Positions 29,363-30,185 of a stretch of DNA of 64,000 bases are shown one piece after another. The notes below the pieces were generated by a model. It saw nothing but the letters and a program-made list of their open reading frames with translations, did no database searches and had not been told where the DNA came from. How positions within the stretch are numbered: the first letter of the stretch is position 1; each line of letters starts with the position of its first letter. A program made the translations under genes and the position numbers. Source of the stretch: Escherichia coli O127:H6 str. E2348/69 (lineage in GTDB: Bacteria > Pseudomonadota > Gammaproteobacteria > Enterobacterales > Enterobacteriaceae); assembly GCF_000026545.1 (NCBI RefSeq), contig NC_011601.1; one strand, given 5' to 3'.

Positions 29363-29394
29363 GTTATTTCTAAAACGAGGAAAGAAAAGATATT

Positions 29395-29427
29395 AACTGA
29401 ACTTAATTTATAAAATTAAGTTCAGTT
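29395..29427. terminator. AT-rich perfect palindrome between convergent nikR and hicB-like genes (possible bidirectional terminator or cassette boundary)
   Basis: aactgaacttaattt ata aaattaagttcagtt: roughly 14-15-bp arms. Confidence 0.4.
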
Positions 29428-29481
29428 GCATAGATAGATCCTGTAAAGGCAGATATTCTGCGTAATGTACGACGCTAAAAT

Positions 29482-29841
29482 TTATAAATGATTCAAACGC
29501 TCATTTAGCGTTTCAATAATATAAGTATTTACAGAGACTTGTTGCTGCGCAGCCGCATTATTAAGGCGTTCACTCAGCGATTCTGGATAGCGTAATGTAA
29601 AGGTCTTAATCTTTTCTGTACGCGCATACGGCTCAATACCCGCAGCTTTACAATCCTCAAGATACTCTCGCAGGGAAAGCTCCCCTTCTTTTTGCAGCCC
29701 CTGAATGCTGTCAGAGACAAAATCACAATAACCTGACAAGCCCAGGAATTTGCCACGAAATGCATTCAGTTCTGGCACGTAAGTGATAACAGCAGGTTGC
29801 CCGGCAATCTCCATAGAGTTTGGCGTCTTCAGTTTGATCAT
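29482..29841 (-). CDS. HicB-family type II antitoxin (N-terminal HicB fold, C-terminal ribbon-helix-helix DNA-binding tail)
   Basis: 119 aa; N-terminal AVITYVPELNAFRGKFLGLSGYCDF...LREYLEDCKAAGIEP resembles HicB; C-terminal KTFTLRYPESLSERLNNAAAQQQVSVNTYIIETLNERL looks like an RHH; ATG overlaps upstream toxin stop (ATGA). Confidence 0.62.
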   Translation of the reverse strand: MIKLKTPNSMEIAGQPAVITYVPELNAFRGKFLGLSGYCDFVSDSIQGLQKEGELSLREYLEDCKAAGIEPYARTEKIKTFTLRYPESLSERLNNAAAQQQVSVNTYIIETLNERLNHL

Positions 29842-30113
29842 GGTTTTACCCCTATACTTAGTAACCAGTCACGCACGCTTTCTACAGCGCCTTTATCGGT
29901 ATCTGGCGACGGATGAGGCCGATGGAAACACGCAACGCTCATATTTAGTATGAACTTACAACGCGAACCTCTTCCTTCCTTAATTTCTCCGCCTAATGCT
30001 TTAACCAGTGACTCTATATCAGACCACTTAATCCCTTGAGGAACAGGAGATTTAAATATTTGATCCAATGTATTTTTTTGTTTCTTCCGCAAAGCCTGTA
30101 CCTGGGTTCTCAT
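29838..30113 (-). CDS. HicA-like type II toxin (putative mRNA interferase, dsRBD-like fold) with Arg at the usual catalytic His position
   Basis: 91 aa; ...SDIESLVKALGGEIKEGRGSRCKF...FHRPHPSPDTDKGAVESVRDWLLSIGV fits the HicA pattern (G-x-GSH-x-F ... PHP ... V ... L ... G) except GSR replaces GSH; sits upstream of and translationally coupled to the HicB-like gene. Confidence 0.58.
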   Translation of the reverse strand: MRTQVQALRKKQKNTLDQIFKSPVPQGIKWSDIESLVKALGGEIKEGRGSRCKFILNMSVACFHRPHPSPDTDKGAVESVRDWLLSIGVKP

Positions 30114-30185
30114 GGCATGTCCTTATGACTTCACTTTATGACATCAATAGTATGACATCACAATATGAAGTCAAGTTTCCCTTCC
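30114..30185 (-). promoter_or_regulatory. promoter/operator of the HicA/HicB-like cassette
   Basis: On the minus strand TTGACT-16 nt-TACTAT then AAGGA Shine-Dalgarno 6 nt before the ATG; GTCATA/TTCATA motif repeated four times and inverted pair TGACTTCA/TGAAGTCA overlapping the promoter. Confidence 0.5.

What the first reader, a model, noticed from the sequence alone, without database searches (positions are those of the whole stretch)
29363..30185. HicA-like/HicB-like toxin-antitoxin cassette occupying the locus where K-12 carries rhsB
Between nikR and yhhJ, where K-12 carries the large rhsB element with yhhH and yhhI, this strain has only an 0.8-kb two-gene module on the minus strand. It is a 91-aa HicA-like protein followed by a 119-aa HicB-like protein with a ribbon-helix-helix tail, with ATGA start/stop overlap and its own sigma-70-like promoter. 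The order (toxin first), sizes and coupling are typical of hicAB type II TA systems, which can act in persistence or phage abortive defence. Rhs loci are hotspots for polymorphic toxin and immunity cargo, so the replacement is notable. The family assignment rests on motif recall, not a search.
Basis: partly seen in the sequence, partly recalled or inferred. Interest (0 to 1): 0.72.

Follow-up and report, generated by a model that had tools for sequence, protein, structure and literature searches.

The report
Annotated HicAB toxin-antitoxin pair, nikR-yhhJ gap
The 0.8-kb insert between nikR and yhhJ is a real but ordinary two-gene HicA/HicB toxin-antitoxin module that public databases already name as such and that sits at this spot in about 38% of complete E. 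coli genomes; its one unusual trait is that its HicA clade has an arginine where studied HicA toxins have their catalytic histidine.

Summary
The window is EPEC E2348/69. Between nikR and yhhJ lie a 91-aa ORF (29838-30113, -) and a 119-aa ORF (29482-29841, -) with an ATGA overlap. K-12 has rhsB-yhhH-yrhC-yhhI at this position.

The HicAB assignment holds. Pfam gives HicA_toxin 3.7e-9 and HicB 3.5e-15. AlphaFold models show a dsRBD fold for HicA and a partial RNase H domain plus RHH for HicB, and their nearest solved folds are HicA and HicB. RefSeq already names both proteins. Four TGAnnTCA boxes straddle a sigma-70-like promoter; they are unique in the 64 kb and recur upstream of orthologues in other genera.

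The "replacement of rhsB" framing is not supported. The cassette is in 2075 of 5426 complete E. coli genomes, always beside yhhJ. Citrobacter has it in the same synteny. S88 lacks both rhsB and hicAB.

Differences from studied HicAs:
- An extra N-terminal helix.
- An invariant Gly-Ser-Arg where canonical HicAs have Gly-Ser-His.
- A conserved His-Arg-Pro-His motif.

This clade is large (about 2,500 clusters at 50% identity) and I found no experimental work on it. About 790 E. coli genomes carry an allele with a stop at hicA codon 2. Interest is low.

The parts
29838..30113 (-). hicA: a 91-aa HicA-family protein (WP_001260301.1). It has an N-terminal helix (res 10-19) followed by an alpha-beta-beta-beta-alpha dsRBD core (res 30-86). 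Motifs are G49-S50-R51 and H64-R65-P66-H67-P68.
   Evidence: ORF. Pfam HicA_toxin 3.7e-9, res 30-80. PHROG 8887 'toxin' 2e-26. AF2 pLDDT 91.5. Foldseek finds solved HicAs at TM 0.60-0.66 normalised to target. Conservation.
29482..29841 (-). hicB: a 119-aa HicB-family antitoxin (WP_000593555.1). The N-terminal domain has a beta-beta-beta-beta-alpha partial RNase H-like fold (res 9-67). The C-terminal domain is a ribbon-helix-helix (res ~76-118).
   Evidence: ORF. Pfam HicB 3.5e-15, res 60-112, plus Arc/CopG hits. A profile of the family hits Arc repressor in the PDB. AF2 pLDDT 87.5. Foldseek finds B. pseudomallei HicB at prob 1.0, Y. pestis HicB3, E. coli HicB and Arc at TMt 0.77-0.80.
29838..29841 (-). 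ATGA overlap: the hicB start codon overlaps the hicA stop codon, implying translational coupling.
   Evidence: Sequence. The same 4-bp overlap is present in all orthologous loci examined.
30147..30174 (-). Predicted sigma-70 promoter: -35 TTGACT (30174-30169), a 16-nt spacer, and -10 TACTAT (30152-30147).
   Evidence: Consensus scan, 9 of 12 matches. The same -35 and a TAAAAT -10 are present in Citrobacter. Transcription was not tested.
30126..30173 (.). Putative HicB operator: four TGAnnTCA boxes at 30173-30166, 30160-30153, 30146-30139 and 30133-30126, with start-to-start spacing of 13, 14 and 13. They form two 21-nt units in inverted orientation. They overlap the -35 hexamer and the expected transcription start.
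   Evidence: Repeats found. The pattern TGANNTCA-N5-TGANNTCA occurs only here in the 64 kb, with 0.00 expected. It recurs upstream of hicA in Citrobacter and Serratia, and as a near match in Dickeya. Binding was not tested.
30119..30123 (-). Shine-Dalgarno AAGGA, 5 nt upstream of the hicA ATG.
   Evidence: Read from the sequence.
29380..29427 (-). Intrinsic terminator-like element downstream of hicB: a perfect 15-bp stem with a 3-nt loop (29427-29395), followed by a U-rich tail.
   Evidence: Scan. Inverted repeat. RNA fold z = -3.96 against shuffles.
28961..29362 (+). nikR: left boundary of the variable interval, convergent with hicB.
30186..31310 (-). yhhJ: right boundary. Its stop codon is 72 bp upstream of the hicA start on the same strand.

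Best explanation
This is a chromosomal type II HicAB toxin-antitoxin operon of the class whose antitoxin carries a C-terminal ribbon-helix-helix (Gerdes class 4).

The proposed mechanism has four steps:
- One promoter drives hicA and then hicB, which is translationally coupled through the ATGA overlap.
- HicB dimerises through its RHH domain and binds the four TGAnnTCA boxes that cover the -35 hexamer and the transcription start, which shuts off the operon.
- The N-terminal partial RNase H-like domain of HicB packs onto the beta-sheet face of HicA and blocks it.
- When HicB is lost or titrated, free HicA (a dsRBD-fold protein) binds and most likely cleaves RNA and arrests growth.

What is shown here: gene layout, family and fold assignments, operator-like repeats conserved across genera, a terminator, and purifying selection. 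What is inferred from characterised HicAB systems: toxicity, RNA cleavage, neutralisation and DNA binding.

This HicA belongs to a large clade with an extra N-terminal helix. In that clade the canonical catalytic His at the start of strand beta2 is an invariant Arg (R51). Two histidines, H64 and H67, are nearly invariant. H64 lies at the end of beta3, directly across the beta2-beta3 hairpin from R51. I therefore infer that H64 and/or H67, together with R51, form the active site.

In E. coli the cassette is an old, vertically held, dispensable resident of the nikR-yhhJ variable spot. It is not Rhs cargo.
For: Family: Pfam HicA_toxin 3.7e-9 and HicB 3.5e-15. PHROG toxin 2e-26 and HicB-like antitoxin 6e-13. 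RefSeq names both proteins.

[quoted passage not shown] Solved HicA and HicB structures are among the top Foldseek hits.

Operon: ATGA overlap, conserved in six other genomic contexts. Promoter and terminator.

Operator: the paired-box pattern is unique in the 64 kb with 0.00 expected. It is conserved upstream of orthologues although the flanking DNA differs.

Selection: against Citrobacter, dN is 0.085 for hicA and 0.133 for hicB while synonymous sites are saturated. The motif residues are invariant in 49 homologues and 141-144 of 146 in 50%-identity representatives.

Toxicity is consistent with recurrent knock-outs of hicA only, with hicB left intact: a stop at codon 2 in 787 genomes and a frameshift allele on 588 contigs.

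The mechanism of characterised HicAB systems is taken from PMC10865869 and PMC11594946.
Against: No experiment exists for this cassette or, as far as my searches show, for its clade.

The histidine essential in E. coli (H23), B. pseudomallei (H24), Y. pestis (H28) and S. pneumoniae (H36) HicAs is Arg here. RNase activity therefore cannot simply be carried over.

Sequence searches find no solved HicA. Foldseek E-values for the small HicA domain are weak (0.9-2.6).

There are no NCBIfam or PADLOC hits.

The promoter is only a 9-of-12 consensus match. The many decayed hicA alleles could equally reflect neutral loss.
Confidence: 0.75

Rival explanations
1. The main biological role is anti-phage abortive infection. 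Infection releases HicA, which shuts down the cell before phage progeny are made. This concerns the role only and is compatible with the mechanism above.
For: A 76%-identical hicAB pair sits in a P2-like prophage between replication gene A and the portal gene Q. From my own knowledge, that is where P2 carries its exclusion genes tin and old, and it is a known cargo site for defence systems. The clade also occurs in Burkholderia phage ST79 and in Ralstonia phages, and has its own PHROG families. The Azospirillum copy lies among resolvase, integrase and portal genes. Gerdes 2024 argues for a defence role for HicA generally.
Against: There is no PADLOC hit. In E. coli the neighbours are the nickel-uptake operon and an ABC transporter, not defence genes. 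The locus is not mentioned in the main text of the E. coli defence-island survey. The cassette is fixed at one chromosomal site and is often inactivated. No phage assay exists.
Confidence: 0.3
2. HicA of this clade is not a nuclease. With the catalytic His replaced, it acts only as an RNA-binding or regulatory partner of the HicB repressor, or the pair is an inert relic.
For: R51 replaces the catalytic His. About 38% of cassette-bearing complete E. coli genomes carry a hicA with a stop at codon 2 (787 of 2075). Other frameshift alleles are common. That pattern fits dispensability.
Against: GSR and HRPHP are nearly invariant across roughly 1,000-2,500 diverged clusters. That argues for a conserved active site, not a dead one. 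The tight coupling to a HicB partner and the autoregulatory operator are kept in every context examined. Loss hits hicA while hicB stays identical, as expected if HicA is harmful when unopposed. From my own knowledge, other RNase toxins such as RelE work without histidine.
Confidence: 0.15
3. The cassette is polymorphic toxin/immunity cargo left behind by, or functionally tied to, the Rhs element that occupies this site in K-12.
For: The nikR-yhhJ gap is one of 11 Rhs insertion sites in E. coli (PMC2935791).
Against: There is no Rhs core, tip or H-repeat sequence in the window interval, and no hicAB trace in K-12. hicAB is on the opposite strand from rhsB and has its own promoter and terminator. 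The same cassette in the same synteny is in Citrobacter and sits next to nikR in another enterobacterium. Its absence does not depend on rhsB: S88 has neither rhsB nor hicAB. Both proteins are HicA/HicB by profile and by fold.
Confidence: 0.02

Closest known systems
RHH-type HicAB systems (Gerdes class 4), e.g. Burkholderia pseudomallei HicAB (PDB 6G26) and Yersinia pestis HicA3B3 (PDB 4P78)
   Same: The gene order is hicA then hicB. HicA has a dsRBD fold. HicB has an N-terminal partial RNase H-like domain and a C-terminal RHH. The promoter carries palindromic repeats. These structures are among the best structural matches for both models.
   Different: There is no detectable pairwise sequence similarity to any solved HicA or HicB. 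HicA is about 30 residues longer, with a conserved N-terminal helix (L16, F20, P23, W30). The essential Gly-Ser-His (Bp G22/H24, Yp G26/H28) is Gly-Ser-Arg here, and an extra His (H64) precedes the conserved Pro-His. HicB is shorter (119 aa against about 135).
E. coli K-12 HicAB (hicA b4532 / hicB b1438, PDB 6HPB)
   Same: Both are chromosomal hicAB operons of E. coli. The fold family is the same for the toxin and for the antitoxin N-terminal domain.
   Different: The locus is different. K-12 HicA is 58 aa with catalytic H23. K-12 HicB uses an HTH DNA-binding domain, not an RHH (class 3). The genes are separated in K-12 and overlap here. The only profile-profile hit is a spurious helix match.
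Phage-borne HicAB of the same clade (PHROG 8887 / 9151; Burkholderia phage ST79, Ralstonia phages; P2-like prophage of Enterobacter)
   Same: These have the same subfamily signature and the same two-gene layout. Identity is 50% in the phages and 76% in the P2-like prophage.
   Different: Those copies are mobile cargo in prophages. The E. coli copy is fixed beside yhhJ, with no mobility genes nearby.

Membership tests
HicA toxin family (Pfam PF07927) | Significant match to the HicA_toxin profile | tested here: met
   E=3.7e-9, query residues 30-80 against model positions 1-52 of 58. The precomputed PF07927 assignment is present on nearly all homologues.
HicA toxin family (Pfam PF07927) | alpha-beta-beta-beta-alpha double-stranded-RNA-binding-domain fold | tested here: met
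   The AF2 model has pLDDT 91.5 with elements H30-39, E43-46, E51-56, E59-64 and H74-86. Solved HicAs 6G26, 6HPB, 1WHZ and 4C26 give TM 0.52-0.66 normalised to the target, but with weak E-values. This is a prediction, not a solved structure.
HicA toxin family (characterised His-dependent RNases) | Conserved catalytic His after Gly-Ser at the start of beta2 (Ec H23, Bp H24, Yp H28, Sp H36) | tested here: not met
   G49-S50-R51 is invariant in 49 homologues. R51 is present in 141 of 146 representatives and His in only 1. The collinear hhalign alignment pairs R51 with K-12 H23, though weakly (E=0.06). R51 is the first residue of predicted beta2. The importance of the His comes from PMC11594946.
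HicA toxin family | Toxic, RNA-cleaving activity | not testable with these tools
   This needs expression and RNase assays.
HicB antitoxin, RHH type (Gerdes class 4) | Match to the HicB profile and a C-terminal ribbon-helix-helix | tested here: met
   Pfam HicB E=3.5e-15, residues 60-112, plus Arc and CopG hits. The family profile hits Arc and AmrZ in the PDB. Foldseek gives Arc at TMt 0.77-0.80.
HicB antitoxin, RHH type (Gerdes class 4) | N-terminal partial RNase H-like fold | tested here: met
   The model has E9-12, E15-22, E27-32, E41-43 and H46-67. Foldseek finds Bp HicB at prob 1.0, Yp HicB3 4P78_A at TMt 0.58 and TTHA0281 at TMt 0.61. Pfam HicB_lk_antitox itself was not detected.
HicB antitoxin, RHH type (Gerdes class 4) | hicA upstream of hicB in one operon, with palindromic operators in the promoter | tested here: met
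   ATGA overlap. Four TGAnnTCA boxes over the promoter, unique in the window and conserved in other genera. Actual HicB binding was not tested.
Known anti-phage defence systems (PADLOC-DB) | Match to a defence-system protein model, or location in a defence island | tested here: not met
   No PADLOC hits. The neighbours are the nik operon and yhhJ/rbbA. Only a homologue lies in a P2-like cargo site.
Rhs-associated toxin/immunity cargo | Physical linkage to an rhs core or tip, or to orphan tips | tested here: not met
   No rhs-related sequence lies in 29363-30185. Orthologous cassettes in other genera have no rhs neighbours.

The most novel reading that the evidence does not exclude
The GSR...HRPHP clade with the N-terminal helix is a mechanistically distinct HicA lineage. 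It comprises about 2,500 clusters at 50% identity, is found in chromosomes and prophages, and has no characterised member that I could find. In this reading the general-base histidine has moved from the start of beta2 to the facing end of beta3 (H64), or has been replaced by Arg-assisted catalysis. That could change its RNA target or its trigger, and the clade would act as prophage-borne defence cargo.
Probability: 0.3. Interest if true: 0.4.

Novelty: already known. Interest (0 to 1): 0.2.

Why it matters
It matters little as a discovery. The cassette is already annotated as HicA/HicB in RefSeq, is present in more than a third of complete E. coli genomes, and fits a well-described class.

Its practical value is twofold:
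- It corrects the evolutionary reading of the nikR-yhhJ hotspot. hicAB beside yhhJ looks like the older resident, shared with Citrobacter. rhsB and a PTS operon are alternative cargo, and hicAB presence or absence varies independently of them.
- It flags a large, untested HicA clade that lacks the canonical catalytic histidine. E2348/69 (intact allele) and strains such as D5 (natural hicA nonsense allele with an intact hicB) give a ready-made pair for testing whether such HicAs are still toxic RNases.

Tried and rejected
- NCBIfam and PADLOC scans gave nothing for either protein.
- Sequence and profile searches of the PDB found no HicA or HicB, only Arc-like RHH hits. K-12 HicA itself hits only its own entry, so this silence reflects the diversity of the family.
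- hhalign of the clade against K-12-type HicAs kept pairing the C-terminal helix (..RDWLLSIGV..) with the N-terminal helix of K-12 HicA (..RRWLESQGV..). I considered a circular permutation and rejected it, because the Pfam match and the predicted topology are collinear.
- I looked for a hicAB remnant in K-12 and found none.
- I looked for literature on this locus or on the WP accessions and found none. The O157:H7 paper that mentions HicA/HicB cites only the K-12 hicAB literature and gives no sign that it concerns this locus. The ExPEC PPECC42 hicAB biofilm paper (Hou et al. 2023, cited in PMC11594946) was not opened, so I could not determine which locus it concerns.
- The main text of the E. 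coli defence-island survey does not mention this site.
- Rfam finds nothing in 29200-30400.
- One tblastn of K-12 HicA against the phage collection added nothing to the question.
- dN/dS against Citrobacter could not be computed as a ratio because synonymous sites are saturated.

Full report
**1. Observation**

The window matches E. coli E2348/69 at 100% identity over the interval. On the minus strand there is a 91-aa ORF at 29838-30113 and a 119-aa ORF at 29482-29841. The stop codon of the first overlaps the start codon of the second as ATGA.

nikR ends at 29362 and yhhJ ends at 30186. The finding's coordinates are therefore exactly the intergenic interval.

K-12 MG1655 has rhsB, yhhH, the yrhC pseudogene and yhhI between the same two genes. 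Window homology to K-12 stops 6 bp after nikR and resumes exactly at the yhhJ stop codon. There is no hicAB trace in K-12.

**2. Protein identity**

Profile searches support the family call:
- Pfam gives HicA_toxin (PF07927) at E=3.7e-9 over residues 30-80 of the 91-aa protein.
- Pfam gives HicB (PF05534) at E=3.5e-15 over residues 60-112 of the 119-aa protein, with weaker Arc and CopG ribbon-helix-helix hits.
- PHROGs gives a phage "toxin" family at 2e-26 that spans almost the whole protein, and a HicB-like antitoxin family at 6e-13.
- NCBIfam and PADLOC give nothing.

RefSeq already names the two proteins HicA family toxin (WP_001260301.1) and HicB family antitoxin (WP_000593555.1). Both exact sequences occur on at least 1000 public contigs under those names.

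AlphaFold models built on family alignments are confident:
- HicA has pLDDT 91.5. It shows an extra helix at residues 10-19 followed by an alpha-beta-beta-beta-alpha core.
- HicB has pLDDT 87.5. It shows four strands and a long helix, then two helices of an RHH.

Foldseek against the PDB agrees:
- For HicA it finds the B. pseudomallei, E. coli and T. thermophilus HicA structures at TM 0.60-0.66 normalised to the target. The E-values are weak, as expected for a 60-residue domain.
- For HicB it finds B. pseudomallei HicB (prob 1.0), E. coli HicB, Y. pestis HicB3 and TTHA0281 for the N-terminal domain, and Arc repressor for the C-terminal domain.

In Gerdes' scheme this is class 4: hicA then hicB, with the HicB DNA-binding domain an RHH (PMC10865869).

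**3. Regulatory anatomy**

Upstream of hicA the scan finds TTGACT, 16 nt, TACTAT at 30174-30147.

Around this promoter lie four TGAnnTCA boxes, at 30173-66, 30160-53, 30146-39 and 30133-26. They form two 21-nt units in inverted orientation. The paired-box pattern TGANNTCA-N5-TGANNTCA occurs only at these two places in the 64 kb, against 0.00 expected.

The same boxes flank the hicA promoter in Citrobacter, and appear as two pairs in Serratia and as a near match in Dickeya. The surrounding DNA in those genera is unrelated. An Azospirillum homologue has different repeats.

This is the expected signature of an RHH autorepressor operator. Binding itself is inferred.

Other elements:
- An AAGGA Shine-Dalgarno lies 5 nt before the hicA ATG.
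- A perfect 15-bp hairpin with a U-rich tail follows hicB. Its fold has z = -3.96 against shuffles.
- No Rfam family matches the region.

**4. Population and evolutionary context**

Counts among 5426 complete E. coli genomes:

| Feature | Genomes |
|---|---|
| Cassette present (always chromosomal) | 2075 |
| yhhJ-hicA junction intact | 2067 |
| nikR abuts rhsB (as in K-12) | 2117 |
| nikR abuts a GntR/PTS/kinase/aldolase operon | 1635 |
| nikR abuts hicB (as in this window) | 1490 |

The cassette therefore has one fixed position. The remaining roughly 580 cassette-bearing genomes have other DNA between nikR and hicB. In the two genomes examined it is the PTS operon (O145, O157:H7).

S88 has the PTS operon but no hicAB. 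S88 and K-12 share a segment of about 90 bp, containing a REP-like sequence and a hairpin, next to yhhJ where hicAB would be. hicAB presence or absence is thus independent of what lies on the nikR side.

Comparisons outside E. coli:
- Citrobacter has yhiI-rbbA-yhhJ, hicA, hicB, nikR in identical synteny.
- Another enterobacterium has hicAB next to nikR with a different gene on the other side.
- Against Citrobacter, HicA is 86% identical and HicB 79%. dN is 0.085 and 0.133 with saturated synonymous sites. The flanks have dS 0.8-1.0 and dN 0.02-0.03.
- The cassette has 43-44% G+C against 55% for its neighbours.

The cassette is under purifying selection but evolves faster than the flanks. Independent capture at the same site cannot be excluded. 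The simplest reading is that hicAB beside yhhJ is old, and that rhsB and the PTS operon are alternative cargo of a known Rhs site (site 9 of Jackson et al., PMC2935791).

**5. Decay**

Strains such as D5 carry an allele with a 14-bp deletion between two direct copies of TGATGTCATA in the promoter. The deletion removes one box and the TACTAT hexamer and brings TAAAGT into the -10 position. The allele also changes hicA codon 2 from AGA to TAA. hicB stays identical.

This allele is present at 99% identity or more in 787 genomes. A separate frameshift allele of 55 aa is on 588 contigs.

Repeated loss of the toxin gene with retention of the antitoxin is typical of chromosomal TA modules. It fits a harmful HicA but does not prove one. 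The copy in the window is intact.

**6. Differences from studied HicAs**

In every characterised HicA a histidine after Gly-Ser at the start of beta2 is essential: Ec H23, Bp H24 with G22, Yp H28, Sp H36 (PMC11594946).

Here the motif is G49-S50-R51. It is invariant in 49 homologues. A profile search of 1.84 billion representatives finds 2469 clusters at E<=1e-3 and 998 at E<=1e-10. Conservation among 146 of the top representatives is as follows:

| Residue | Count out of 146 |
|---|---|
| R51 | 141 (His in only 1) |
| H64 | 143 |
| H67 | 142 |
| G49 | 144 |
| S50 | 143 |

The equivalence of R51 and the catalytic His rests on four points:
- The shared Gly-Ser that precedes it.
- R51 being the first residue of predicted beta2.
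- A weak collinear hhalign alignment to K-12-type HicAs that pairs R51 with H23 and H67 with H38.
- The rare GSH variant in one representative.

In the predicted beta2-beta3 hairpin (51-56 and 59-64), H64 pairs with R51. A relocated histidine is therefore a reasonable, testable inference. I had no coordinates with which to check the geometry.

The N-terminal helix (L16, F20, P23 and W30 conserved) is also clade-specific.

I found no experimental paper on this clade. Gerdes' survey does not discuss catalytic residues.

**7. Biological role**

In E. coli the neighbours are not defence genes. However, a 76%-identical pair sits in a P2-like prophage between gene A and the portal gene. From my own knowledge this is the tin/old cargo site.

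The clade also occurs in Burkholderia phage ST79 and Ralstonia phages, and in a resolvase/integrase region in Azospirillum. In Serratia and Dickeya it lies between housekeeping genes.

A defence role is plausible for the mobile copies and unproven for this one.

**8. Verdict**

The finding is real and correctly identified, but ordinary and already annotated. The interest score of 0.72 is not justified; I give 0.2.

The residual point of interest is the histidine-less HicA clade. It could be tested directly with the intact E2348/69 allele and the natural hicA-null alleles.

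Noticed in passing
L006 (E. coli D5) 3030-3141, equivalent to window ~30100-30175: A common allele has a 14-bp deletion between two TGATGTCATA repeats in the hicA promoter. It removes one operator box and the -10 hexamer and places TAAAGT in its position. It also has a TAA stop at hicA codon 2, while hicB is unchanged. The allele is present at 99% identity or more in 787 of 5426 complete genomes. PGAP still calls a 76-aa 'HicA' from an internal CTG.
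   Followed up: partly
Protein P0110 (E. coli, 55 aa), corresponding to window hicA codons 1-49: A second decayed hicA allele has a frameshift at the Gly-Ser-Arg motif (...EGRGGAVSSY*). It is seen on 588 public contigs. I did not determine which lineages carry it.
   Followed up: no
L002 (K-12) ~8090-8180 and L005 (S88) ~8910-9000, adjacent to the yhhJ stop: Genomes without hicAB share a segment of about 90 bp (94% identical between K-12 and S88) containing a REP-like sequence and a hairpin. It lies exactly where hicAB sits in the window, whatever lies on the nikR side.
   Followed up: partly
L003 (O145) 12601-18210; L005 (S88) 3291-8891: A third cargo type occupies the nikR-yhhJ gap: a GntR regulator, PTS IIA/IIB/IIC (galactitol-type), an FGGY kinase, an HPr-like protein and a class II aldolase. 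The nikR-to-GntR junction is present in 1635 genomes, with or without hicAB.
   Followed up: partly
L018 5001-5629 (Enterobacter, P2-like prophage): A hicAB pair 76% identical to the window's lies between P2 gene A and the portal gene Q, which is the position of tin and old in P2. Two DNA methyltransferase genes lie upstream of gene A.
   Followed up: no
L014 (E. coli A30, horse) 9084-9950: An IS1A element sits directly after nikR, and yhhJ-rbbA-yhiI-yhiM are missing. This looks like an IS1-associated deletion of the whole right flank.
   Followed up: no
Window HicA residues 76-91 against K-12 HicA residues 2-17: The C-terminal helix of this HicA (..VRDWLLSIGVKP) resembles the N-terminal helix of K-12 HicA (..FRRWLESQGVDV) closely enough to dominate profile-profile alignment (prob 66-83%). 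I treated it as a chance helix similarity and not as a circular permutation.
   Followed up: partly
Public annotations of the same proteins: Older records name this HicA 'hexulose-6-phosphate synthase' and this HicB 'DNA repair protein'. These look like propagated misannotations.
   Followed up: no
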